Virus record (IMG/VR): IMGVR_UViG_3300000976_000008
Span: 335,223 to 399,222 of that record
Source of the DNA: a virus
Lineage: Duplodnaviria > Heunggongvirae > Uroviricota > Caudoviricetes
Reading direction: 5' to 3' (one strand)
Length of the DNA stretch: 64,000 nucleotides
Shown: one piece after another, positions 20,408-62,837 of the stretch
How positions within the stretch are numbered: the stretch's first letter is position 1
Layout of the letters: the number at the start of each line of letters is the position of its first letter
The notes under the pieces: model-generated
What the model saw: only the letters and a program-made list of their open reading frames with translations
Database searches by the model: none
Told to the model about the DNA's origin: nothing
Program-made: the position numbers and the translations under genes

Positions 20408-20635
20408 TCTAATTCTATAGACTTGATGCTTGTCAATAAATAATTGTAGTCCGTCACACGTATCGCCGACGTTCATAATTATTTCTCTACCACAACCGAA
20501 TACTTCTGTCATTTGAATAACAGTCGGTTGCCCATACCTCTTGACGAAATTCCTTATATCTCGTTCAAGTTCTGACCATCTCCCAGCTTCTTGAAGCTGC
20601 TTCTTCAGTTCATCGTCGATCATAGCATCATCCAA
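20387..20635 (-). CDS. Hypothetical protein
   Basis: 82-aa ORF overlapping the end of the sigma gene. Confidence 0.6.
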   Translation of the reverse strand: MDDAMIDDELKKQLQEAGRWSELERDIRNFVKRYGQPTVIQMTEVFGCGREIIMNVGDTCDGLQLFIDKHQVYRIRLSPQTT

Positions 20636-21500
20636 TCGGTTCTTTGAGTACCTTCTCGAAGCCGACTAAGGTTTCGAGAATATTGGTGGAAGTCGCCCCA
20701 CCTTTTCCGGACAAATTCCTTTTTGCTTTCTTCTTCGCTTCAAATTCAATTTGGCGTATCCGTTCCCTGGATACGCCGAAATCATTTCCTATTTGTTCTA
20801 ATGTTTCTCCATCAAATCGACGTTGCAAAATTTCCGATGATCTCTCATTGAGACCAAACCAAGCAATTCTCTTCATCTCGTCAAAAAGTAAATTCGCACC
20901 ATGATCTTGGTGATATCCCTTTTCAGGAATCCATACTTTATTATTCCTACCTGTCATAAATAATGACTTAGAAGTACACTTGATCGCGTGCAATGTCGAG
21001 ATTGGGATATCTAAATCTTCAGCCCATTCCTTCTCAGTAGGGGGCCTACTATATTCATGGGAGATCTTAGCATACGATCGCCGTGCTTTCTCTTGAAGAA
21101 GAGAAATCGAAACAGATCCGAATTCGTTATCTGTTTCGAGGCAATACCTACGCATTCTTCTCTTAATGGCAACATAAGAATATGTCGAAAACTTATAGCC
21201 ATAAGAGGAATCGTAATAAGCGATAGCAGACATTAGTCCAAGGAATCCTTCTTGGAGGCAGTCTTCAGAATCATTTCGTCGCTTGCAGAAATTATACCTT
21301 GTCCAGATATGGACAACTAACCCTACATGTCTTTTGACGAGTTCATTCCTGATCCTATACCAATCATTGGTTGGGGTCTTGTCTTCGGTTTCATCCGCAG
21401 GTTCTTCTAGGGACATGAACTCAAAAAGCTCAATATCATCCCATCCAAGATACCGGGGGGATGGTCGAAGAAAATCAAAATTGCTCAGTATAGAATCCAT
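20628..21500 (-). CDS. RNA polymerase sigma-70 family sigma factor
   Basis: Region 2 NELVKRHVGLVVHI...EDCLQEGFLGLMSAIAYYDSSYGYKFSTY; region 3 RPPTEKEWAEDLDI; region 4 LNERSSEILQRRF.GETLEQIGNDFGVSRERIRQIE. Confidence 0.95.
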   Translation of the reverse strand: MDSILSNFDFLRPSPRYLGWDDIELFEFMSLEEPADETEDKTPTNDWYRIRNELVKRHVGLVVHIWTRYNFCKRRNDSEDCLQEGFLGLMSAIAYYDSSYGYKFSTYSYVAIKRRMRRYCLETDNEFGSVSISLLQEKARRSYAKISHEYSRPPTEKEWAEDLDIPISTLHAIKCTSKSLFMTGRNNKVWIPEKGYHQDHGANLLFDEMKRIAWFGLNERSSEILQRRFDGETLEQIGNDFGVSRERIRQIEFEAKKKAKRNLSGKGGATSTNILETLVGFEKVLKEPIG

Positions 21501-21518: not shown

Positions 21519-21767
21519 CTAAGTCCATCTTAGAGAACGCAGAACCTTGCTCAATAGATCATCGGGATCATCGCAATCAATTTTCACCATCTTATCAGAC
21601 CTTCTGAAACAGATCTGGACATGTCGATTATGATCAGAGATTTTTCCAACAATAGTTGCGGAGGCAATTGCTCTGCATCTAATGCCGGAATATACTTTCC
21701 CGTCGACTTCAATAATTAGAAATCTACGGAAACCCCTGCGAACGACCTTGGCAGAACTTGCAATCAT
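21519..21767 (-). CDS. Hypothetical protein
   Basis: 82-aa ORF with AAGGA RBS. Confidence 0.6.
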   Translation of the reverse strand: MIASSAKVVRRGFRRFLIIEVDGKVYSGIRCRAIASATIVGKISDHNRHVQICFRRSDKMVKIDCDDPDDLLSKVLRSLRWT

Positions 21768-37792: not shown

Positions 37793-38521
37793 ATGTCAGA
37801 AACAGAAAATGATATACCATTAGTCTCAGCTATAACATTAACCGGTAGGAATAATTTATCGGATTTGTTAAACTGTATCGAATGTTTTAAGGCACAAACA
37901 TATCCATATAAGGAATTAATTATAATCAACAATGCTAGAAATCAACTAGCAGCTAGTGAATTGAATATCAAGGCGGAGAAGGATATATTCCTAATAGATA
38001 CGCCAAATGAATTGACTACTGGTATGGCCAGAGCACATGGTATGGCAGCGGCAAACGGTCGAATAATAGCACAATTCGACGTTGATTATTGGCATGCACC
38101 AAATAGATTAGAAACCCAAATAGTAAATCTTGGGCGGCAAAGTGCACACATATCAGTATTATCAAGATGCTTAGGATACAGTTTCGTTTCAGGTAGAGCC
38201 AGATACCATGAAAACGAAAAGAGAGCAATCTTAGGAACAATGGTGCATATTAGACAGGCAGAAATAAATTATCAACCTGATCGAGATAAAAACGAAGAAT
38301 TAGGATTCCTCGAAGATCTTACCAAAAAAGGTTATCAACCAATATCAATTGATTCTCCCGAACTATGTTGTAAACTAAACCTCACATCAGAAGGTAGAAT
38401 CACAACACCAATAAATTCAGGGCTAAGTAAAGCTCACTTCAAAACGGTACAGGAAATGCTGACAAATCATCATTCTCCAAAGAATGCAGCACCAGAGATT
38501 CCAACAACTGCAGAGAATTAG
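37793..38521 (+). CDS. Glycosyltransferase family 2 protein
   Basis: PLVSAIT...CIECFKAQTYPYKELIIINN...ARAHG...ANGRIIAQFDVDYWHAPNRL, the GT-A pattern with DxD. Confidence 0.9.
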   Translation: MSETENDIPLVSAITLTGRNNLSDLLNCIECFKAQTYPYKELIIINNARNQLAASELNIKAEKDIFLIDTPNELTTGMARAHGMAAANGRIIAQFDVDYWHAPNRLETQIVNLGRQSAHISVLSRCLGYSFVSGRARYHENEKRAILGTMVHIRQAEINYQPDRDKNEELGFLEDLTKKGYQPISIDSPELCCKLNLTSEGRITTPINSGLSKAHFKTVQEMLTNHHSPKNAAPEIPTTAEN

Positions 38522-38828
38522 GATCAGAAAGATCAACACTAATCTGTTTTTCGCCGTAACTGAACGACATTTTAGTAGGACCCTCTTTATTTTCAAAAAG
38601 AATCGTCGGATATCCTTGATTCATCACCGACATGATAGATTGATTGATTAAATTACTTTTCTCTCTTTCAGTTAATTGCTCGAATTTGTCATCGGCTTTC
38701 TTTTGAGCCTCAACCAAGGCATCATATTGAATACCTTTCGCAATAATTAATCCAAAACCCAAAGGATAATAGCCAACATTTCTATCCCTAAGAAATGTTC
38801 CGAGATGTTCTAGAACAGCCTCATTCAT
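38439..38828 (-). CDS. Hypothetical protein
   Basis: Likely start MNEAVL at 38828; 3' end overlaps the GT2 gene by ~80 nt. Confidence 0.55.
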   Translation of the reverse strand: MNEAVLEHLGTFLRDRNVGYYPLGFGLIIAKGIQYDALVEAQKKADDKFEQLTEREKSNLINQSIMSVMNQGYPTILFENKEGPTKMSFSYGEKQISVDLSDPNSLQLLESLVLHSLENDDLSAFPVPF

Positions 38829-38840
38829 AGATATATTGTT

Positions 38841-38848
38841 CAAAAATA
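38841..38848 (+). promoter_or_regulatory. CAAANNTA motif (CAAAAATA), candidate late promoter of the 38875-43377 unit
   Basis: 26 nt upstream of ATG 38875, followed by a GAGGA RBS. Confidence 0.6.
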
Positions 38849-38874
38849 TGAATAGATAAACGAAAGAGGAACTC

Positions 38875-40794
38875 ATGCCTTCAATACTTGACAAGCTAAA
38901 CAAAAAATTATCTCCTCTAACAGAATCAGAGGATATGGGATCATGGAAAGATCCCCACTCAGGTGCATACGACCGGCAAAGAGCCGAAGATGCATTATAT
39001 CATACAATTGGCCCATTAACCGACTCACCTACATGGGATACCAAAGATTGGTCGAGTAAAAGCGAACCAGTCGATGGATTCAGACCTGGAGCACCAGCTC
39101 CACAATGGACTCCTGAAGAATTAGTGTTCGCCTTCGCTGGCGATCCAAGTTTGTTATTCAAAGCAAGTGGTAATCCAAAAAGCCCCGGCTACGGTGATAT
39201 GGGCGGTGCCCCTCTCTATCGTCTAGCTAGAAGAGTCGCAAACACATATGGTCGCGGCACAGATAAGTCATTCGTAGCAGATCTCTATAGCAATGGTTTC
39301 ATCCCACTAACTCAGATGATGCAACCTGGCTACGATGAAAAACGTGGACCATTCATTTCGTACATCATGAGAACAGTTCAAAGTGCTATGGAACACGGAA
39401 CTGGTGGTAGTACAACAGGTGATATGGCACAAGGCCACCAAAGTCAATTCTTCACAGATCCAGACGGTAACATGAGGAAAAGAAAGCCTGGAGATGCTGG
39501 AGAAGAAGGATGGACTGAACATTCTGCAATTGGAATCAAAGGTCTCCTCAAATTAACAGATCCACAGGCTGTAAGGCAGGCAGCACAAGTCGTCCAAGGA
39601 AAATATCAAACCGAAAAGCACCACGATAAGCACCCAGGTAATCCATTTGGCGGCTTCTCTCCTCAATATTTCGGTCTCGCTAACCAATATGCTGATGCTC
39701 TTGAAGCTGGAAATCCAGAAGCCGTCGAAGCATCTCAAAATCAACTTCGACAGCTTCTAACAGATGTTGAAGATATGAATGCAAGCATTGGCGGAGCTTC
39801 AACAGGTCTCGGTCAAGCAGTTTCTACACCAAACAGAGGAAAATGTGCACTCTGCAAAGGTCAAGGAGCCATCAAAGATCCACGAGATCCAGAAGGTGGT
39901 CTCATAAAATGTGAAAAATGTGGTGGAGATGGTGTCGATGGTGTCGGTGTTCAAAGCATGGATGTTCCAGCCGATGATGGAAAAACAATGGCCGGAAACG
40001 TCCTCGGGGGAGATGACGGTGAAGATGGCACAGTTGATCCAGAGTCAATCGAGTACATCTTAGACCTAGCAATCAACCACGACCTTAGCAAGATCCTCGC
40101 AACCAGCGAAAAGTATAACGAACTTGCTACAATGTCTGGTGCGAAAGTTGATAAGAAGACTGGAAGAGCCAAACTTGGTGGCCCGATGACCGCTAACGAA
40201 ATGAGATATCTCATTCGTTCGCTCGGACCACTTGGTAGCAACTATCCCGGCAGAGGACGAGCCAGAGCAAACACCAAGATTCCTAGAGATGGTAAGAAAT
40301 GGTGGCAACCTGGTGAAGACCCAGAAATTGAACCACTAGCAGAAGGTGGAATGTGGCACTCTCTTTGGAGCAGAAACAACTACCCAACAATGGGTCCAAC
40401 TGAAATAGCGGCTGAGATGACCAAAGAGGTCTTAGAATTCGAAAAAGTTGGAGTTGCTTCAGCAAGAGCAGCAAAAGTAGCTCAAAGCGGAACAGCCGTC
40501 TCAAAAGTGGCTATCTCGAACACTACAAAAGCTGGTCGAATTAAACTCATGATTATCGCAGATATTCATAGAGACCAGATTGGTGTAAGGGCAGAAGGGA
40601 AAAAATCATACCAAATTCCTCTGATGGAAGACTTGGACCCGATCGATTGTCATATGATTGCCACAGTCTGCGAATCGATGATTAGAAGAATTGACAGATC
40701 ATTGCACAGCAACAAAATAGTTGCGTCATGGAAGCCAAGGACTGGCGGAAATGTAACTAAGCTAATGACAGTGAATTCTTTGGAAATCAAATGA
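38875..40794 (+). CDS. Highly divergent sigma-70-like factor with large insertions and a DnaJ-type Zn finger (639 aa)
   Basis: Region-2-like LYRLARRVANTYGRG...ADLYSNGFIPL......GYDEKRGPFISYIMRTVQSAM; CALCKGQG/CEKCGGDG; 3.2-like SMDVPADDGKTMA; 4.1-like MTANEMRYLIRSLG; 4.2-like MGPTEIAAEM...VSKVAISNTTKAGRIKL, all in canonical order. Confidence 0.65.
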   Translation: MPSILDKLNKKLSPLTESEDMGSWKDPHSGAYDRQRAEDALYHTIGPLTDSPTWDTKDWSSKSEPVDGFRPGAPAPQWTPEELVFAFAGDPSLLFKASGNPKSPGYGDMGGAPLYRLARRVANTYGRGTDKSFVADLYSNGFIPLTQMMQPGYDEKRGPFISYIMRTVQSAMEHGTGGSTTGDMAQGHQSQFFTDPDGNMRKRKPGDAGEEGWTEHSAIGIKGLLKLTDPQAVRQAAQVVQGKYQTEKHHDKHPGNPFGGFSPQYFGLANQYADALEAGNPEAVEASQNQLRQLLTDVEDMNASIGGASTGLGQAVSTPNRGKCALCKGQGAIKDPRDPEGGLIKCEKCGGDGVDGVGVQSMDVPADDGKTMAGNVLGGDDGEDGTVDPESIEYILDLAINHDLSKILATSEKYNELATMSGAKVDKKTGRAKLGGPMTANEMRYLIRSLGPLGSNYPGRGRARANTKIPRDGKKWWQPGEDPEIEPLAEGGMWHSLWSRNNYPTMGPTEIAAEMTKEVLEFEKVGVASARAAKVAQSGTAVSKVAISNTTKAGRIKLMIIADIHRDQIGVRAEGKKSYQIPLMEDLDPIDCHMIATVCESMIRRIDRSLHSNKIVASWKPRTGGNVTKLMTVNSLEIK

Positions 40795-41708
40795 AATTAG
40801 CTGATGCTACAAATCTCTCGCTCTATGAAGCAAGCATCGCCTGCGATTCTATTGTAATACTCGAAGATGGCGAAGGCCCAAGATGGAAATTCGCATACGA
40901 CAACTGGCATCACGATCCTAATCCAGATATCCTTCTATTAGGCTCTTGGCGACATCCGAGTACCCAGAACAATCTCGTAGGCGGAATCAATCTACATTAT
41001 CTCAATGATAAGCAGCGAGATAGTTTAGCTAGAATACTACCGAAGATCATGGGAGGTGGGAATCTCAAAGATCGATATTGGATCGGTAGAGAAGCACTCC
41101 CAGATGTCTTCAATAACTTCTACAGAACATATAACGCCAATTTCATACGTGGTGTCAGAAAAGACGTTATGTTCCCGAAATTTGGATTCATGAAGACTGC
41201 CCAAAACTGGATTAAGAAAAAGTTAGGAGGCATCTTAAAAAGCAAAGAACAAAGAGCTAAAGAAGCTGAACCTAAATATCCAGAAGATCTTGGTAGGATG
41301 CAAGATAAACTAGACCAAGTAGTTCTTCAGTTGCAGGCAAAAGACGCAACCGATGCCGAGCCAGAAATTGAAGATACACCAGAAATGCAAGCCGCGAGAT
41401 CCGCATTCCAAGATTATCAACGTGAAAAAACAATGGCTGGAATCCAACAAAAGGAAAACCAACCATTACAAGCTGCACAACAGGATATTAAACAACAAGA
41501 TGTTGTAGACCAATTACAACAGCAACAACAACAGCAAAACGAAGTCGATTTAGCCGCTGAAAGAAGGCAAAATCAAGAAGAATTGTTAAATCCTAACAAC
41601 GAAATAGATCTGAGCAGCGACGAAATTGACCTTTCAGAGGCAATAAGATACTACTCGCCAACTCTTGGTAGATATGTCATCGAAGAAGACAATACAGTCT
41701 TAAGCTAA
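40791..41708 (+). CDS. T4 gp2-like DNA end protector protein with Q-rich C-terminal extension
   Basis: FAY...HDPNPDILLL......GGINLHYL...R......YRTY pattern of gp2-family proteins. Confidence 0.7.
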   Translation: MKLADATNLSLYEASIACDSIVILEDGEGPRWKFAYDNWHHDPNPDILLLGSWRHPSTQNNLVGGINLHYLNDKQRDSLARILPKIMGGGNLKDRYWIGREALPDVFNNFYRTYNANFIRGVRKDVMFPKFGFMKTAQNWIKKKLGGILKSKEQRAKEAEPKYPEDLGRMQDKLDQVVLQLQAKDATDAEPEIEDTPEMQAARSAFQDYQREKTMAGIQQKENQPLQAAQQDIKQQDVVDQLQQQQQQQNEVDLAAERRQNQEELLNPNNEIDLSSDEIDLSEAIRYYSPTLGRYVIEEDNTVLS

Positions 41709-41718
41709 TTGCTCCTAA

Positions 41719-43377
41719 ATGAGCGAGTATCATAGAGAAATAGAAGAATATAGGATCAAATTCGCAGCAGTCGATAGAAAAGATCCTAAATCTCTGCGAA
41801 GATTCTTTGACAGATACCCACATCTGCGAACAACAGATATGGCTCTAATTGTCGAAAGAGACACAAACTATGTCCGAAGTCTGAGAATACTCGCAGGACT
41901 TGGAAAGCCACCAGTAAAGCATAGGCCGACCAATCCCAATAGAAAAATCATAAACATAAAAGTCCCCGAAAATTGGGATAATGAAAAATGGTTAAGGAGA
42001 GCAGCCGCTCTCTATTCAACTTTAGCCATATCAAAGGCCATAGGAGTAAGCAGAAGGACTATTCTGCGGCGATTCGAAAAATACGGAATCAAAGCCCAGA
42101 GTTATGAAGAGTCCATGAGACCAAACAACCCATGCTGCAACAAAGCTTGGGTCCACAAGCATTACGTAGAAGACAGATTATCTCAAACTGAATGTGCCAG
42201 ACTAGCCGGAATCACCAGAGCAGGATTTACAAAATGGCTAGTAAGATTCAAAATAGCTGTTAGAACTCCAAAAGAAACGTACGCAAAAAGAAAAACTGTA
42301 ACAATATGGCCCAGAGAGTTACTGCACAAATTAAACGATCAACCAATAGTTAGAAAATGCTACGTCAGAGATGACCATATACATGTAAGATTCATGAATT
42401 ACTTTTGGGAAACTTACTACCTCAATAAACCAGCCACAAATAAAGCAAACGCTAGAATTCCAAGATCATACGGAATCACCAGAAAAGAAGCAAAACTGGA
42501 AAGTGTCCCACCAGTAATACAACAATATGAATCTGATTTCGATAGATCTTACCCAGCCCACATAGTAATCCCAAGAGATAAATGGGATGCAGCGAGTTTC
42601 ATAGAACAAAGACTAGCAGTACATGAATTCGCCAGACAAATGACTCAAAGAGGTTGGATAGACCCAAATTATCCTCAGCACATCATAGATGCTGAATGGG
42701 ACAAGCTCAAAAACATCAATTCAGCAAGATATCTCAGAAAGAGTACATTTACCGCATTTCCGTGTATAGGAACTCAAGCACCACCAGGAAGAAGATTAGT
42801 TGAAAATTACTTCGATTTCAATGAATTATGGGATGTGATCAGAAGTCCAAGATGGACTATGAACACTCTAAATAGTCTAACCAGCAAGAAGCTTCAAATT
42901 GACACACACAATTTCTACCGAACAATGATGGCAGAAATACGAAAACCAATGCCCAGAATGGTGGATCCAGGTCTCTATATAGTATTATTCAAGAGGTTAG
43001 GAATAACTGGTAAAATATTAGATCTAACTCCTAACCATGGAAGCAGAGCAGTCGCAAGTGCCATCAATGGCATCACATATTGCACTCTGCCAAATGAAAA
43101 GGTACAAAAAGCGATCAACAAAGGATTATGCGAGCAAACAGGTCTAAATTACGAAGAGTACGATGATGGTAAAGTAGACCTCGTCATGATAGATAATGAC
43201 CTCAGAGAATGCGATATTGAATTAGCAATGGAATATGCTTCGAAAGCCAAACGAATCATGGCCTTCGTACCCCGAAACAAAAAGTCAATAATCGCATCGA
43301 AGTACAAACCAAGCTCGATTATCCAAATCAAAGCCCGATTCTTCAGAAAAACTCCAGATTTCCTCTTCATCTGGTGA
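41719..43377 (+). CDS. Multi-HTH DNA-binding protein fused to a degenerate DNA methyltransferase-like domain
   Basis: HTH modules (STLAISKAIGVSRRTILRRFEKYGI; SQTECARLAGITRAGFTKWLVRFKI); C-terminal KILDLTPNHGSRAVAS and VDLVMIDND sit where motif I and motif IV would be. Confidence 0.6.
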   Translation: MSEYHREIEEYRIKFAAVDRKDPKSLRRFFDRYPHLRTTDMALIVERDTNYVRSLRILAGLGKPPVKHRPTNPNRKIINIKVPENWDNEKWLRRAAALYSTLAISKAIGVSRRTILRRFEKYGIKAQSYEESMRPNNPCCNKAWVHKHYVEDRLSQTECARLAGITRAGFTKWLVRFKIAVRTPKETYAKRKTVTIWPRELLHKLNDQPIVRKCYVRDDHIHVRFMNYFWETYYLNKPATNKANARIPRSYGITRKEAKLESVPPVIQQYESDFDRSYPAHIVIPRDKWDAASFIEQRLAVHEFARQMTQRGWIDPNYPQHIIDAEWDKLKNINSARYLRKSTFTAFPCIGTQAPPGRRLVENYFDFNELWDVIRSPRWTMNTLNSLTSKKLQIDTHNFYRTMMAEIRKPMPRMVDPGLYIVLFKRLGITGKILDLTPNHGSRAVASAINGITYCTLPNEKVQKAINKGLCEQTGLNYEEYDDGKVDLVMIDNDLRECDIELAMEYASKAKRIMAFVPRNKKSIIASKYKPSSIIQIKARFFRKTPDFLFIW

Positions 43378-43433: not shown

Positions 43434-43441
43434 CAAAAATA
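43434..43441 (+). promoter_or_regulatory. CAAANNTA motif (CAAAAATA), candidate late promoter
   Basis: 35 nt upstream of ATG 43477. Confidence 0.55.
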
Positions 43442-43476: not shown

Positions 43477-45930
43477 ATGGCATTAGACCAAATCCCTCCC
43501 CACTCATCACTCACTGATGGGCAATTTGTGCAGGTATCTGGCCCTGACGGAATCACAACAGGGTACCATTATGACCAGCAACAAAGGGCTTTGTACTTCA
43601 AAGAGTCGCAAGTCTTATTCCCAAGTTTCCACGGTCAAAGCCACATAGCTGAAGACCCAATTCCGAACGCCACTTGCGACACTCCAGGTTTATTGTCAGA
43701 TGACGATAAATGCAAACTGGACGCAATGCTTCAAACAAGACTAGGAGTCCTCGGGTTCCAAGGAGCAGGATTCCCAGATGATGGCGGTTGGATGCAAGGA
43801 GATATTATCCTTGCAGCCGGTACAGAATTCATCAGTCTAGAAAGAATCGGAAACGTAATCCGATTCACTGTGGATAGCCCAATTCCTCTGAATTGTGCAT
43901 GTGAAGAATGCCAACAAATATTCTGGGTCCAAGACGAAACAGACACAGCAGCTATCAGACCACCAACATGCGGTGGTAAATTACCAGGAGTTAATTCTTA
44001 CGGAGAGATGAAGATTTATCTCTTCCCAGAATCGACTATTGCAGATCCTAGCAATACTGCGGCAACACTGAATAATAAGGGTACACATCCAGCCTTTATC
44101 TTCAAACGATTTGACGATACAATCGTGCCTGGTGCTGCAGAACACGAAATGGTTTTGGTTCGCGATCCGAATAATACTCTACAGACACAAGTGGGATGGG
44201 CATTCACACCTGGTGCTGCTGGTGTTGCTGAGATGGTTTGGTTCATGGGTAAAGATGACGAAGGCGGACAGCTTCGTTTCGATCTTGAACCAGAAAGTAC
44301 CCCAGGATTGCTTGGATCACTCTTGTTCAATGGTCACTTGTTGACTAAGAAAATGGGTGTAGTAGTTGATTACACATCAACTATTCTAAGCACTAACCAA
44401 TATACAGTCAGAGAATGGAATGTCGATTCAGCAACAGCTATCGGTGATCCTTTCACTGCAACAAACGCCTGGATGTATCAAAATCCAGAAAATCCAAGAT
44501 CAGGTACTAATCCACAAACTCTCGTTTCTGATTCAACGGTTGATCTCCTTCCAATAGGTAGTCTCGTAAACCTATGGGCATTCAAGGTCGGTGAAGTCTC
44601 AGGTGAATCAATCCTGAGATACTATTTCAGAGAGAAGCCTAGATTCAATCCTAACCATGCTTGGACTTGGCTTGGTAAGACGCAATTCGGAGATGTTGTC
44701 ACAGCCCGTGCAGAACTAATGCCTAGTGCTGGAGATGACGATAAATCATCTGCTGAATTGGTTTCAGCCGCAAGAGGATTTGAAACCAGTATGTGGGGTC
44801 TGACAGGATTAGATGACCCTCTTCTAAGCTTCGATATGGCGGTTGCATCTGGCACTGAAAATTCTGAAGTTAACATTCAACACAGAGCAGCCATTGATAC
44901 CAATCTTCCAGGATTGACGGTAGTGGCTAGTGACATAGTCCCAGATGACTTTAGCGAACGTCCAGTCTTACTTTGGAACAGACATAATGTTTGCAATGCT
45001 ATCGTGAGGGCAGATGTTGGTCGACCAACCAGTTCAGAATTTGTCCCATACGACATAATTCTAAGAGGCGAGATTGATCAACACACAACAAAGTACATGC
45101 AAGTTGTTGGTAAGGGAGAATTTAACGGCTTGAATTATGTTCAAGTCACTGGCGTCCACTTCCATGATCTTCCTCAATTTGGAGCAGTTAGAGTTCTGGC
45201 TCCTTCAAATAACCACAATAGCGTCTTCAATTACAGTAGAAAGCTAGTTTTCCCAACTTCCACTGGAACTAATCCAACCAGCCCAAGTGCTATCGACTTG
45301 GATACAGTCGTCCTTGCTGGCGGAGATGCTTACCCTGGTGATATTGGTGACATAGTTGAGCTTCTTCACCAAGAATATTCGTCTCCAGTGGTTCGCGTCG
45401 AATTCTCAACAGCGGCTACTGGATTGGTCGAAGTGCAATTCAAGGTAGGCACACTTGATATGAGCCTTCCTTATGAAGAGGATGTTCTGGCTGATGACGC
45501 AGATGATTATGTTCGTGGTTTAGCACCTGGCTACTCTGTAAGTGCAATCTACTCACAATCAGGAACATTTACCGGAATTGGCACTCAACCAAGTGCATCT
45601 CCAGACGGCTTTATTTGCTATGATGGAGGAGCTGTTGTTGGTGCAACTGAGCCTGAATTCTGGAATCGCTTAGAGGTAATGATTAGGGATAATCAAGTTT
45701 GGATTTGGTGGAATGAGTTGTTGATACCACCAAATTCTACTTTGAGTGCTAATCTTGCCACACCGGTTGAAGTAGAGACTCCTTACTTCTCAATCGCAAC
45801 CGACGCGACACGTGACAGTGGTAAAATGGGGATGAGACTCTGGCCTGGTGCTAAGGTTCGAAGATTCGATGTTCGAACTCAATTGACTCTCTTCAACGAG
45901 TTCACATACGGTCAACTTGAAGTAGTATAA
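43477..45930 (+). CDS. Virion structural protein (817 aa)
   Basis: N-terminal P...DGQ and IPNAT.DTPGLLS.DDK.KLD fibre-type motifs shared with the 56383 and 59793 ORFs; beta-rich. Confidence 0.75.
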   Translation: MALDQIPPHSSLTDGQFVQVSGPDGITTGYHYDQQQRALYFKESQVLFPSFHGQSHIAEDPIPNATCDTPGLLSDDDKCKLDAMLQTRLGVLGFQGAGFPDDGGWMQGDIILAAGTEFISLERIGNVIRFTVDSPIPLNCACEECQQIFWVQDETDTAAIRPPTCGGKLPGVNSYGEMKIYLFPESTIADPSNTAATLNNKGTHPAFIFKRFDDTIVPGAAEHEMVLVRDPNNTLQTQVGWAFTPGAAGVAEMVWFMGKDDEGGQLRFDLEPESTPGLLGSLLFNGHLLTKKMGVVVDYTSTILSTNQYTVREWNVDSATAIGDPFTATNAWMYQNPENPRSGTNPQTLVSDSTVDLLPIGSLVNLWAFKVGEVSGESILRYYFREKPRFNPNHAWTWLGKTQFGDVVTARAELMPSAGDDDKSSAELVSAARGFETSMWGLTGLDDPLLSFDMAVASGTENSEVNIQHRAAIDTNLPGLTVVASDIVPDDFSERPVLLWNRHNVCNAIVRADVGRPTSSEFVPYDIILRGEIDQHTTKYMQVVGKGEFNGLNYVQVTGVHFHDLPQFGAVRVLAPSNNHNSVFNYSRKLVFPTSTGTNPTSPSAIDLDTVVLAGGDAYPGDIGDIVELLHQEYSSPVVRVEFSTAATGLVEVQFKVGTLDMSLPYEEDVLADDADDYVRGLAPGYSVSAIYSQSGTFTGIGTQPSASPDGFICYDGGAVVGATEPEFWNRLEVMIRDNQVWIWWNELLIPPNSTLSANLATPVEVETPYFSIATDATRDSGKMGMRLWPGAKVRRFDVRTQLTLFNEFTYGQLEVV

Positions 45931-61355: not shown

Positions 61356-62837
61356 ATGTTGAAATCACTAAAAATCAAAGAGTCACATGAAGGATCTTTG
61401 TTGAAAAAGCAGAATGTGATTGGTACGGCAATTGGTGAAAAATGGAAAAATGGTGCAACCACCGGAAAAGAGGCTGTACTAGTTTTTGTAGAAGAGAAAA
61501 TGGCTAAAGAGAAAGTAGCCAAAAAATTCTCATCTTCAGATCTCGTCCCAAGTGACATCGAAGGAATTCCAACCGATGTGATCGAAGTTGGAGTAATAAA
61601 AAAGCACAACACCTCAAAAGTGAGACCAATTAGACCCGGTTTCAGCATCAGCCACAGAAAAATCACTGCTGGGACACTAGGAGGATTCTTCATCGATAAA
61701 GATGGAGATCCAGTATTACTCAGTAACAATCATGTCATAGCCAATGAAAATTCAGCAAGAGCTGGTGATATTATCTACCAACCAGGAACAATGGATGCAA
61801 GAGGCAGTCTAATGTTCAAAGGATGGTCAGAGCCAATAGAAAAATTGCCATATATTGCTATGTTGAAAAAATTCGTCAGAATCAAGAGGAATGGTAATAA
61901 TCAAGACTCCGCAATCGCCAAACTACATCCAAGTATTGTCAGATTAGTAAATGACACATACCCCACGATAAACCAAAAATTATCTGGATTCGGCATTGCA
62001 AGAATTGGAACACAAGTCCAAAAAGAAGGAAGAACCACTGGCCATACTACCGGTAGAGTGATTGGTACGAATGCAACATTCACAGTTGGCTATGATTTTG
62101 GACCAGCACAATTTAGAAATTGTGTAGTAACAACAGCAATCAGTAAAGGAGGAGATTCCGGTAGTATAATATTCGATATGAATATGAAGGCTGTAGGATT
62201 ATTATTCGCCGGTTCGCCAACAGTAACAATTGCGAATCCAATGAACGTAGTACAAAGCCATTATGGTCTTAGACCATGGTCTCCAGATTCAATAAGAGTC
62301 CCAGATCCAATAGCAATGTTTGGACTTAGCTGGGAGAAAATGAAATCAGCATCTTCTAAATTAGAAAAGGTAGATGATATAATTACTATGGAGTCCGGAG
62401 CCAATCAATACTGTTATTACGAATCCGCGTTGCAAAAACCAATAAAATCAGTATCATGCACTATTAATACTGGTTCAGATGTAGGGGCAACTTGGGGACC
62501 AGGATTAGTAGTTGGATGGCCCAATGGAATGCTGAAAGTCAACTTAAGGAAAGAGACTTTTGGTGGATATTATAACAGCAATTATAATATCAGTGTTGGT
62601 GAAACGAAACCAAACACAAATTATCCAGTCAGAATTCGGAGATCACGCACCACATGGGTTGGCGAAGTGATGGATTCCAACAAGTGGTACACAGTAATAG
62701 AGGTACCGCTGAGCACTTTTCCAAATAATCCAATTGTCGTTAGAGTTGGGAAAACAGCTCTACTCGGCGGTAACATCGATCACAATCCAATAGGTGATGT
62801 GGGAAGATGCACTATAAGCGATTTCAAGATTTCCTAA
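61356..62837 (+). CDS. Trypsin-like serine protease (Nal1-like S1) with C-terminal beta-sandwich domain
   Basis: N-terminal prodomain (VFVEEK...DLVP..IEGIPTDVIEVG), AGTLG, LSNNHV (His), DSAIA (Asp), GRTTG.T.G, GGDSGS (Ser), VGLLFAG. Confidence 0.9.
   Translation: MLKSLKIKESHEGSLLKKQNVIGTAIGEKWKNGATTGKEAVLVFVEEKMAKEKVAKKFSSSDLVPSDIEGIPTDVIEVGVIKKHNTSKVRPIRPGFSISHRKITAGTLGGFFIDKDGDPVLLSNNHVIANENSARAGDIIYQPGTMDARGSLMFKGWSEPIEKLPYIAMLKKFVRIKRNGNNQDSAIAKLHPSIVRLVNDTYPTINQKLSGFGIARIGTQVQKEGRTTGHTTGRVIGTNATFTVGYDFGPAQFRNCVVTTAISKGGDSGSIIFDMNMKAVGLLFAGSPTVTIANPMNVVQSHYGLRPWSPDSIRVPDPIAMFGLSWEKMKSASSKLEKVDDIITMESGANQYCYYESALQKPIKSVSCTINTGSDVGATWGPGLVVGWPNGMLKVNLRKETFGGYYNSNYNISVGETKPNTNYPVRIRRSRTTWVGEVMDSNKWYTVIEVPLSTFPNNPIVVRVGKTALLGGNIDHNPIGDVGRCTISDFKIS

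What the first reader, a model, noticed from the sequence alone, without database searches (positions are those of the whole stretch)
38841..43377. Candidate virion-packaged sigma factor: cryptic 639-aa sigma-70 with Zn finger, in a late operon with the DNA end protector
Seen in sequence: ORF 38875-40794 has sigma-70-like segments in canonical order. Region 2 (~39214-39390): LYRLARRVANTYGRG..ADLYSNGFIPLTQ...GYDEKRGPFISYIMRTVQSAM, against the canonical LV.IA.rY..rG....DL.qeG..gL......fD..rG.F.tYa...Irqai. Region 3.2 linker: SMDVPADDGKTMA. Region 4.1: MTANEMRYLIRSLG. A split 4.2 HTH: MGPTEIAAEM + ~26 aa + VSKVAISNTTKAGRIKL. These are separated by large insertions, including a DnaJ-like CxxCxGxG/CxxCxGxG finger. 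The gene follows the CAAANNTA motif shared by virion genes, carries LTE-S/LME-D motifs at both termini, and overlaps (ATGA) a gp2-like DNA end protector. Established: T4 gp2 is packaged with the DNA, and T4 prohead protease gp21 cleaves after hydrophobic-x-E. Inference: this sigma is made late, packaged, trimmed and injected to redirect host RNAP core to phage early promoters. That would be an alternative to the virion RNAPs of phiKZ/N4, and I do not know it as a described system.
Basis: partly seen in the sequence, partly recalled or inferred. Interest (0 to 1): 0.88.

Follow-up and report, generated by a model that had tools for sequence, protein, structure and literature searches.

The report
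Giant divergent sigma factor, gp2-linked
A 408-kb T4-related phage encodes an oversized, very divergent sigma factor that always sits just upstream of a DNA-end-protector-like gene and carries a conserved N-terminal tag ending in the head-protease cut motif, so it may be loaded into the virus particle and injected, though this is not shown.

Summary
Observation confirmed. ORF 38875-40794 (639 aa) has no direct Pfam or PHROG sigma hit, yet it belongs to the sigma-70 family.

- **Sequence:** Distant members of the same family pass Pfam's own cut-offs for Sigma70_r2 and Sigma70_r4, in the same register.
- **Structure:** high-confidence AlphaFold models of the two halves retrieve sigma domain 2 and sigma domain 4 chains.
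- **Distribution:** the family has 82 representatives at 50% identity. All seen are uncultured, and contigs reach 438 kb.
- **Zinc finger:** it is a private insertion of this phage, not a family trait.
- **Next gene:** it shares the core of T4 gp2 (weak but consistent support) and directly follows the sigma gene in 6 of 6 loci examined.
- **T4 context:** the genome has a T4-type capsid protein and gp21-type protease, but no detectable gp55 or gp33.
- **Promoter motif:** a CAAANNTA-type motif is enriched upstream of genes, including head genes and this gene.
- **Leader:** an N-terminal leader ending in hydrophobic-x-Glu is kept in 116 of 119 members.

Packaging and injection remain inference (about 0.35). 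The scan reached the same reading earlier on another genome (e1-5350418).

The parts
38841..38848 (+). Promoter-like motif CAAAAATA, 34 nt upstream of the ATG
   Evidence: The [CT]AAA[ATG]ATA class occurs 24 times in sense upstream windows against 4.8 expected and 4 antisense. A CAAANNTA- or TAAATATA-type motif lies 27-41 nt upstream of the homologues in L006, L007 and L008.
38864..38869 (+). Ribosome-binding site AAGAGG
   Evidence: Read from the sequence.
38875..40794 (+). Giant divergent sigma-70-family protein (639 aa, P0001)
38875..38925 (+). N-terminal leader, residues 1-17: an amphipathic helix ending in L-T-E, followed by a low-confidence hinge (residues 17-19)
   Evidence: A hydrophobic-x-Glu within residues 9-24 occurs in 116 of 119 family members, against 152 of 569 genome ORFs. 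Members at about 20% identity keep it. pLDDT is below 50 at residues 17-19.
39214..39390 (+). Sigma region 2.1-2.3 equivalent (residues 114-172)
   Evidence: hhalign. VIA-align matches to sigma domain 2 chains. Pfam Sigma70_r2 on distant members in the same register. Atlas features.
39844..39933 (+). CxxCxGxG ... CxxCGGxG zinc-finger-like insertion (residues 324-353), private to this phage
   Evidence: Pfam DnaJ_CXXCXGXG E=0.16, below its cut-off. Absent from the aligned homologues. 4 of 120 members have two or more CxxC, at other sites. pLDDT is below 50 here.
39955..40002 (+). Region 3.2-like acidic linker (residues 361-376)
   Evidence: Paired with the sigma 3.2 segment in the collinear hhalign alignment. 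The serine at residue 361 is invariant in the family.
40186..40227 (+). Region 4.1 equivalent (residues 438-451)
   Evidence: hhalign. Profile alignment to the matching helix of P0297. Helix 56-71 of the C-terminal model.
40390..40548 (+). Split region 4.2 helix-turn-helix (residues 506-515 and 542-558, about 26 aa inserted between them)
   Evidence: The family profile over residues 542-558 aligns to P0297 491-527, which is that protein's Pfam Sigma70_r4 hit (24.2 bits, cut-off 24.1). Sigma domain 4 chains are retrieved by fold.
40618..40632 (+). Conserved P-L-M-E-D after a flexible linker: a candidate C-terminal protease site
   Evidence: The family consensus keeps hydrophobic-x-Glu here. pLDDT is below 50 at residues 571-579. 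Cleavage itself is inference.
40791..41708 (+). gp2-like protein (305 aa, P0002); start overlaps the sigma stop (ATGA)
   Evidence: BLASTP to T4 gp2 gives E=5e-6, 39% identity over 54 aa. phrog_429 'DNA end protector' is the only hit, E=0.0027, and also hits the L006 homologue. hhalign P=4e-4. It follows the sigma gene in 6 of 6 loci.
41719..43377 (+). Tandem helix-turn-helix protein (552 aa, P0003), third gene of the conserved block
   Evidence: Pfam UPF0175 and HTH hits at residues 91-182. A PHROG DNA-binding part at residues 81-187. Homologues of 547-555 aa sit in the same position in L006-L008. Function not resolved.
43434..43441 (+). Second CAAAAATA motif, 43 nt upstream of the next gene
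43477..45930 (+). 817-aa protein (P0004), fourth gene of the conserved block
   Evidence: Homologue of 827 aa in L007; in L006 and L008 the ORFs in this position are 1636 and 1665 aa with intein/Hint Pfam hits. No Pfam, PHROG, PDB or T4 match.

Best explanation
ORF 38875-40794 encodes a very divergent, insertion-expanded member of the sigma-70 family. It is a core gene of an uncultured clade of T4-related megaphages.

**Anatomy.** It keeps a sigma domain 2 (regions 2.1-2.3), a 3.2-like acidic linker and a sigma domain 4 whose helix-turn-helix is split by insertions. Added to these are:
- a 17-residue N-terminal leader
- a Trp/Pro-rich N-terminal module of about 90 residues
- a helical bundle after region 2
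- in this phage only, a zinc-finger-like insert

**Shown.** Homology and fold, family breadth, invariant linkage to the gp2-like gene, the shared upstream motif, and the presence of a gp21-type protease.

**Inferred.**
- The phage has no RNA polymerase of its own that I could detect, so the protein most likely binds host core RNA polymerase (domain 2 on the beta' clamp helices, domain 4 on the beta flap) and directs it to phage promoters.
- It is made together with the gp2-like protein, from a promoter type that also precedes head genes.
- I cannot resolve whether it then acts inside the producing cell or is loaded into the head and delivered with the DNA. I put packaging at about 0.35.
For: **Sequence**
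- hhalign against a sigma alignment: residues 114-183 pair with regions 2.1-2.3, P=0.0024.
- The sub-alignment of residues 100-200 scores 32.9. The reversed template scores 19.0; 40 shuffled templates give 15.7 +/- 2.6, max 22.2.
- The 168-sequence family alignment gives one collinear alignment through regions 2, 3.2, 4.1 and 4.2 (score 44.3, P=1.5e-4, probability 52%).

**Transitive homology**
- An exhaustive profile search with the N-terminal alignment found 82 representatives.
- P0286 (family E=3.6e-18) passes Pfam Sigma70_r2: 32.8 bits against a cut-off of 24.
- P0297 (family E=3.1e-9) passes Sigma70_r4: 24.2 bits against 24.1.
- P0302 and P0292 give weaker r2 hits, and P0283 a weak r4_2 hit.
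- The registers agree with P0001.

**Fold**
- Whole-protein model: pLDDT 83.9. C-terminal domain model: pLDDT 93.3, pTM 0.90.
- VIA-align against 48,161 chains puts seven sigma domain 2 chains in the top 50. Examples: SigB 8x6g_H Z 7.2 over 84 aa; RpoS 5h6x_B Z 6.8 with 89 of 96 residues; sigma70 1sig_A Z 6.5, rmsd 1.8, 20% identity; T4 late complex 7d7d_F Z 6.2.
- For the C-terminal model it puts four sigma domain 4 chains in the top 50, all at low rmsd: 4xln_F Z 4.8, rmsd 2.2, 74 aa; 3vep_D with 65 of 68 residues.

**Language-model features**
- For residues 95-315, 25 of the 30 nearest named Atlas clusters carry Sigma70_r2 (score 0.90).

**Context**
- T4-type capsid protein (E=3e-80) and gp21-type protease (E=1.4e-19) are present.
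- No Pfam beta or beta' RNA polymerase domains.
- Group 2 jumbo phages are described as lacking an RNA polymerase and using phage sigma factors (PMC7824862).
Against: - P0001 itself gets no Pfam or PHROG sigma hit, even at E<=1.
- The fold Z-scores are middling for helical proteins (4.3-7.5), and generic helix bundles outrank the sigma chains.
- hhalign probabilities are 12-52%, not decisive alone, and the C-terminal half alone gives no hhalign signal (P=0.48).
- The Trp dyad of region 2.3 is not kept.
- Binding to RNA polymerase, promoter specificity and timing are all untested.
- The genome also has a conventional 290-aa sigma, and a 98%-complete relative has two. The giant protein is therefore not needed merely to supply a sigma.
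Confidence: 0.72

Rival explanations
1. Virion-packaged sigma. The protein is made late, targeted to the prohead by its N-terminal leader, and trimmed by the gp21-type protease after L-T-E (residue 17) and perhaps L-M-E (residue 585). It is then ejected with the DNA, next to the gp2-like end protector, to capture host core RNA polymerase at once.
For: - The leader ending in hydrophobic-x-Glu is present in 116 of 119 members, against 27% of genome ORFs. Members at about 20% identity keep it even though they do not match the Trp/Pro-rich N-terminal part of the profile.
- The cut position coincides with a low-confidence hinge.
- The last eight leader residues fit the pattern [KR]-L-x-x-[IL]-x-E-S. 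That same pattern forms the N-terminus of seven otherwise unrelated small ORFs in this genome, much as a shared capsid-targeting tag would.
- The gp21-type protease is present.
- The capsid protein aligns an I-L-E-D site to the T4 gp24 cut site.
- T4 gp21 cuts after L/I-x-E. T4 Alt, an ejected RNA-polymerase modifier, is trimmed at both ends (PMC9026906).
- The gp2-like gene is adjacent in 6 of 6 loci.
- The upstream motif is shared with head-module genes and conserved in position in three relatives.
- Conventional sigmas also exist in this phage and in a relative, leaving room for a special role.
Against: - There are no virion proteomics and no cultured relative: tblastn against 50,697 phage records found nothing.
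- Hydrophobic-x-Glu is a short motif, and a conserved N-terminal helix could serve another purpose.
- The leader profile finds no significant paralogue in the genome (best E=0.41).
- The promoter class has no timing data, and the same motif also precedes the operon of the conventional sigma.
- No packaged sigma factor is known from any phage (my knowledge; none turned up in the paper searches).
Confidence: 0.35
2. Ordinary intracellular phage sigma, never packaged. It drives the class of promoters marked by the [CT]AAANNTA motif, functionally replacing the missing gp55/gp33 pair, and it auto-amplifies from its own promoter. The leader has another role, for example docking or autoinhibition.
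For: - No gp55 or gp33 is detectable (phrog_234, phrog_12791, phrog_254 and the T4 gp55 protein).
- It is the only sigma conserved across the clade. The conventional sigma P0125 has no homologue above 36% identity.
- The motif is conserved upstream of the gene in relatives and upstream of head genes, so its reader should be conserved too.
- The protein has its own domain 4, so it would not need a gp33-like partner.
Against: - A sigma gene lying behind the promoter class it recognises needs a primer source.
- This model does not explain the invariant gp2 linkage, or why the leader is conserved more deeply than the rest of the N-terminal module.
Confidence: 0.37
3. Sigma-derived protein that no longer initiates transcription. 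For example, it could be an internal head or DNA-end-associated protein that works in a complex with the gp2-like protein and reuses the DNA-binding folds.
For: - The tight pairing with the gp2-like core includes a locus where the partner is only the 124-aa core.
- The melting aromatic residues of region 2.3 are not kept.
- Large insertions split domain 4.
Against: - Regions 2.1-2.2 (the core-binding part), the 3.2-like linker and the 4.2 recognition helix are the best conserved sigma-like parts. That is what retained RNA-polymerase binding would predict.
Confidence: 0.13
4. Chance resemblance: not a sigma relative at all.
For: - No direct Pfam or PHROG hit.
- Foldseek finds nothing in the PDB or BFVD.
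Against: Four largely independent lines agree on the same residues: profile-profile alignment with shuffle controls, Pfam hits above cut-off on family members, fold matches for both domains, and language-model features.
Confidence: 0.06

Closest known systems
Sigma-70 family factors, including the RpoD-like sigmas of T4-like 'group 2' jumbo phages (PMC7824862)
   Same: Domain 2 (regions 2.1-2.3), a 3.2-like linker and a domain 4 helix-turn-helix, in canonical order. The phage lacks its own RNA polymerase, so host core is the presumed partner.
   Different: - Two to three times longer.
- No direct Pfam hit.
- Domain 4 is split by insertions of about 55 and 26 residues.
- Extra Trp/Pro-rich N-terminal module and extra helical bundle.
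- Conserved N-terminal leader.
- Invariant adjacency to a gp2-like gene.
T4 gp55 (late sigma) with gp33 and gp45
   Same: A T4-related phage, a TATAAATA-like A/T-rich upstream motif, and a divergent domain 2. The T4 late complex chain 7d7d_F is among the fold matches (Z 6.2).
   Different: - No sequence relation to gp55.
- It has its own domain 4.
- No gp33 is found.
- gp55 is 185 aa, is not linked to gene 2, and carries no leader.
T4 Alt and the internal proteins (capsid-targeting sequence, gp21 processing, ejection with the DNA)
   Same: An N-terminal tag ending in L/I-x-Glu, a possible second site near the C-terminus as in Alt, a gp21-type protease in the genome, and a target that would be host RNA polymerase.
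   Different: Alt is an ADP-ribosyltransferase, not a sigma. Packaging of the present protein is not shown.
Virion RNA polymerases of N4 and phiKZ/AR9, and the sigma-like nvRNAP subunits gp68 and gp226
   Same: Transcription machinery delivered with, or specified by, a large phage so as not to depend on host promoter recognition.
   Different: Those phages bring their own catalytic subunits. Here no beta or beta' homologue is detected, and only a specificity factor would be delivered.
T4 gp2 DNA end protector (for the neighbouring ORF 40791-41708)
   Same: A shared core of about 55-80 residues (BLASTP E=5e-6; phrog_429 is the only hit).
   Different: - Lacks the N-terminal helix-turn-helix domain of gp2 (phrog_32288).
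- Has a long Gln/Glu-rich tail.
- In one relative it is reduced to the 124-aa core.

Membership tests
Sigma-70 family | Region 2 / sigma domain 2 (Pfam PF04542) | tested here: met
   - Not met directly: no Pfam hit on P0001.
- Met by profile-profile alignment with shuffle controls.
- Met by family members that pass the Pfam cut-off in the same register (P0286, 32.8 bits).
- Met by fold: seven sigma domain 2 chains in the top 50.
- Supported by Atlas features.
Sigma-70 family | Region 4 helix-turn-helix / sigma domain 4 (Pfam PF04545 or PF08281) | tested here: met
   - No direct hit on P0001.
- Family member P0297 passes PF04545 (24.2 bits, cut-off 24.1). That stretch aligns to residues 542-558 of P0001.
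- Four sigma domain 4 chains are retrieved at rmsd 2.2-2.7 over 65-74 residues.
- This is weaker than the region 2 evidence.
Sigma-70 family | Region 3.2 linker between domains 2 and 4 | tested here: inconclusive
   Paired only within the collinear hhalign alignment. The segment is modelled at low confidence.
Sigma-70 family | Binds core RNA polymerase and confers promoter-specific initiation | not testable with these tools
   Needs pull-down and in vitro transcription with the host enzyme. The host is unknown.
T4 gp55-type late sigma | Sequence membership (phrog_234 / phrog_12791) | tested here: not met
   Neither profile nor the T4 gp55 protein matches anywhere in the genome. hhalign of the family against gp55 gives P=0.19.
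T4-type packaged head proteins (capsid-targeting tag, gp21 processing) | N-terminal tag ending in L/I-x-Glu, with a gp21-type protease in the genome | tested here: met
   - L-T-E at residues 15-17.
- 116 of 119 family members keep such a site.
- Peptidase_S77 is present, E=1.4e-19.
- The motif is short, so this condition is necessary, not sufficient.
T4-type packaged head proteins (capsid-targeting tag, gp21 processing) | Presence of the processed protein in virions and ejection into the host | not testable with these tools
   No cultured relative was found. Needs virion mass spectrometry.
T4 gp2 DNA end protector (ORF 40791-41708) | End-protector core (phrog_429) | tested here: inconclusive
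   Consistent across three tests, but each is weak:
- phrog_429 is the only hit, at E=0.0027 (18.5 bits). The L006 homologue hits it at E=0.0026.
- BLASTP E=5e-6 over 54 aa.
- hhalign P=4e-4.
T4 gp2 DNA end protector (ORF 40791-41708) | N-terminal helix-turn-helix DNA-binding domain (phrog_32288) | tested here: not met
   Absent from P0002. The next gene has helix-turn-helix repeats, but they show no similarity to gp2.
DnaJ central zinc-finger domain (PF00684) | Four CxxCxGxG repeats, Pfam cut-off 32.7 bits | tested here: not met
   Two repeats only, 12.7 bits, E=0.16. The insert is private to this protein.
Sigma-like subunit of a phage multisubunit RNA polymerase (phiKZ gp68 / AR9 gp226) | Phage-encoded beta and beta' subunits in the same genome | tested here: not met
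   No PF00562 or PF00623 match in the 408-kb genome. Very divergent subunits could escape these models.

The most novel reading that the evidence does not exclude
The giant sigma is a virion cargo. It is made with the head genes, targeted to the prohead by its conserved leader, and trimmed after Glu by the gp21-type protease. It is then ejected with the genome, beside or bound to the gp2-like end protector, so that host core RNA polymerase is captured on the entering DNA before any phage gene is expressed. This would be the first packaged sigma factor, and a third route to host-independent early transcription beside the virion RNA polymerases of N4 and phiKZ.
Probability: 0.35. Interest if true: 0.9.

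Novelty: new variant of a known kind. Interest (0 to 1): 0.7.

Why it matters
- **Hidden family.** Standard annotation misses sigma factors of about 600 aa. Every homologue that carries a source name is called hypothetical.
- **Transcription in this clade.** The family is a core gene of a widespread clade of uncultured T4-related megaphages that have no detectable gp55 or gp33. It is therefore a prime candidate for how these phages redirect host transcription.
- **A testable question.** The conserved leader and the invariant pairing with a DNA-end-protector-like gene turn "is a sigma factor delivered inside the virion?" into a concrete experiment.
- **If packaging holds.** It would add a new strategy of host take-over, and a natural protein-delivery tag for large phages.

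Tried and rejected
**Searches that found nothing**
- Direct Pfam and PHROG scans of P0001: no sigma hit.
- megablast and tblastn against 50,697 phage records: nothing for the region, P0001 or P0002.
- Family profile against PDB sequences: only spurious cytochrome b562 rows at E>=0.07.
- Foldseek against PDB and BFVD with both models: nothing at E<=0.001.
- Atlas shape search of the C-terminal model: TM<=0.32, uninformative.
- Atlas whole-protein feature search: only a 0.86 lead.
- hhalign of the family against single sequences (the phage's own sigma, T4 gp55): no signal.
- hhalign of the C-terminal half alone against sigma: P=0.48.

**Complex prediction**
- N-terminal domain with E. coli beta' residues 240-335: scores 0.76, 0.83 and 0.75, but one control scored 0.58. 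The tool gave no verdict, so it is not used as evidence either way.

**Ideas rejected**
- Subunit of a phage multisubunit RNA polymerase: no beta or beta' domains.
- The weak Sigma70_r2 hit at C1:108931: it lies in a frame that overlaps an 808-aa ORF on the other strand.
- P0003 as the missing helix-turn-helix half of gp2: no similarity.

**Left unresolved**
- P0003 and P0004: no PDB match for either, and no T4 match for P0004.
- The leader profile found no significant paralogue in the genome.

**Failed call**
- Searching the records behind L006-L008 was not possible. Two IMG/VR relatives were used instead.

Full report
**Setting**

The window is bases 335223-399222 of a 408,349-bp virus record rated complete.
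- The genome carries a T4-type major capsid protein (Pfam Gp23, E=3e-80) and a gp21-type prohead protease (Peptidase_S77, E=1.4e-19).
- It has no detectable beta or beta' RNA polymerase domains.
- This places it with the 'group 2' jumbo phages, which are described as lacking an RNA polymerase and using phage sigma factors (PMC7824862).

**The observation**

ORF 38875-40794 (+) gives a 639-aa protein, P0001. Direct Pfam and PHROG scans find no sigma domain, only a sub-threshold DnaJ zinc-finger hit at E=0.16.

**The family**

- A word-indexed search found 131 homologues at 36-58% identity, 540-956 aa. All that carry a source name are called hypothetical, and their contigs reach 438 kb.
- No cultured phage record matches.
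- An exhaustive profile search with the N-terminal half found 82 representatives at 50% identity. These include distant members that share only the part from region 2 onward.
- In the alignment the zinc-finger stretch is an insertion private to P0001. Only 4 of 120 members have two or more CxxC, and at different sites.

**Is it a sigma factor? Four lines agree.**

1. *Profile-profile alignment.* Against a 30-sequence sigma alignment, residues 114-183 pair with regions 2.1-2.3 (P=0.0024).
   - The sub-alignment of residues 100-200 scores 32.9. The reversed template scores 19.0, and 40 block-shuffled templates give 15.7 +/- 2.6 with a maximum of 22.2.
- With 168 family sequences, hhalign returns one collinear alignment from residue 24 to 566 (score 44.3, P=1.5e-4).
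2. *Transitive homology.*
   - P0286 matches the family profile at E=3.6e-18 and passes Pfam Sigma70_r2 (32.8 bits, cut-off 24).
   - P0297 matches the family at E=3.1e-9 and passes Sigma70_r4 (24.2 bits, cut-off 24.1).
   - Three more members give weaker hits.
   - The P0297 stretch hit by Sigma70_r4 aligns to residues 542-558 of P0001, and its 4.1-like helix aligns to residues 438-451.
3. *Fold.*
   - The whole-protein model has pLDDT 83.9. Disorder is confined to the zinc-finger insert, a short C-terminal linker and the tail. The C-terminal domain alone reaches pLDDT 93.3 and pTM 0.90.
   - Foldseek finds nothing.
   - An exhaustive VIA-align search puts seven sigma domain 2 chains in the top 50 for the whole model, each spanning residues about 30-314. 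Generic helix bundles match only residues 178-303.
   - For the C-terminal model it puts four sigma domain 4 chains in the top 50, at rmsd 2.2-2.7 and covering nearly the whole of domain 4.
   - The Z-scores are middling (4.3-7.5), so this line would not stand alone.
4. *Language-model features.* For residues 95-315, 25 of the 30 nearest named Atlas clusters carry Sigma70_r2.

I put sigma-family homology at about 0.9. I put the fuller statement, that it still acts as a specificity factor for host core RNA polymerase, at about 0.72.

**The neighbours**

- ORF 40791-41708 overlaps the sigma stop.
- Its N-terminal part matches T4 gp2 residues 139-187: BLASTP E=5e-6, 39% identity.
- phrog_429 'DNA end protector' is the only PHROG hit, for it and for one relative. 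hhalign gives P=4e-4.
- It lacks the helix-turn-helix domain of gp2.
- The order sigma-like, gp2-like, 550-aa helix-turn-helix protein, 820-aa protein is kept in three relatives; in two of them the ORF in the fourth position is about 1650 aa with intein/Hint hits.
- The gp2-like gene directly follows the sigma gene even in the two most distant loci examined: hhalign E=1.4e-31, and E=1.1e-20 for a 124-aa core-only form. That makes 6 of 6 loci.

**Promoter-like motif**

- CAAANNTA is not enriched in the window overall.
- Genome-wide it is enriched on the sense strand 8-75 nt upstream of genes: 41 found, 8.8 expected, 17 antisense. CAAAAATA alone: 7 found, 0.9 expected, 0 antisense.
- It precedes genes of the head module (C1 3.5-60 kb), the sigma gene, the 817-aa gene, and also the small ORF in front of the conventional sigma.
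- A motif of this type lies 27-41 nt upstream of the sigma homologue in three relatives whose intergenic DNA otherwise differs.
- It resembles the T4 late promoter, but there are no timing data.

**Leader and protease sites**

- The first 15-17 residues form a conserved amphipathic helix ending in hydrophobic-x-Glu in 116 of 119 members, against 27% of genome ORFs.
- Distant members keep it, even though they do not match the Trp/Pro-rich part of the family profile.
- In the model the site abuts a low-confidence hinge.
- Its last eight residues fit a pattern that also forms the N-terminus of seven otherwise unrelated small ORFs in the genome. From residue frequencies I estimate that far fewer than one such ORF would occur by chance.
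- The capsid protein aligns an I-L-E-D site to the T4 gp24 cut site.
- T4 gp21 cuts after L/I-x-Glu. T4 Alt, an ejected modifier of host RNA polymerase, is trimmed at both ends (PMC9026906).
- All of this is consistent with packaging. None of it shows packaging.

**Other sigma factors**

- The window holds a conventional 290-aa sigma at 20628-21500 (-) (r2 E=1.8e-15, r4 E=8.9e-14). It has no homologue above 36% identity.
- A 98%-complete relative has two conventional sigmas besides its giant one.
- gp55 and gp33 are not detectable in this genome.
- The giant protein is thus the one conserved sigma of the clade, but not the only sigma of each phage.

**Verdict**

The mechanism splits into two about equally likely readings: an intracellular sigma for the motif-bearing promoters, or a packaged and injected sigma. 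A smaller share goes to a sigma-derived protein with another job. The scan reached the same reading on a homologue in another genome (e1-5350418).

Noticed in passing
window 20628-21500 (-), and the 82-aa ORF at 21519-21767 (-): A conventional sigma-70-type factor of 290 aa (Sigma70_r2 E=1.8e-15, r4 E=8.9e-14) with no homologue above 36% identity. The small ORF in front of it carries the same TAAAAATA-type upstream motif.
   Followed up: partly
genome C1: 667-1026 (-), 72530-72952 (+), 107558-107920 (+), 285251-285571 (-), 288403-288717 (+), 405021-405545 (-), 407452-407811 (-); all outside the window: Seven small ORFs (104-174 aa), otherwise unrelated, all begin with the pattern M-[KR]-L-x-x-[ILV]-x-E-S. 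This looks like a shared cleavable capsid-targeting tag, as in the T4 internal proteins. From residue frequencies I estimate far fewer than one by chance.
   Followed up: partly
L006 15633-20543 and L008 14481-19478 (ORFs at the position of window ORF 43477-45930): In two relatives the ORF in the position of the 817-aa protein is about 1650 aa and hits intein/Hint and LAGLIDADG families. The window's copy has none.
   Followed up: no
window 38439-38829 (-), within listed ORF 38439-38903: A protein-like reading frame of about 130 aa runs divergently from the sigma gene. It would leave only about 45 nt between the two starts and overlap the 3' end of the glycosyltransferase gene 37793-38521. Relatives also have minus-strand genes just upstream of the sigma gene.
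   Followed up: no
genome-wide; upstream regions: A second enriched upstream element, ATTAACGG (9 upstream regions against 0.4 expected), comes with a CGCAACA-containing element. It probably marks a different promoter class from the A/T-rich motif.
   Followed up: no
C-termini of many homologues (for example P0065 residues 595-631): Many family members end in a conserved Lys-rich module that hits Pfam DUF6582 (E=2.4e-6). P0001 has only a short divergent tail in its place.
   Followed up: no
window 61356-62837 (+): A 493-aa trypsin-like protease (phrog_20754 E=1.6e-57; NAL1_N and Trypsin_2 Pfam hits). It is distinct from the gp21-type prohead protease.
   Followed up: no
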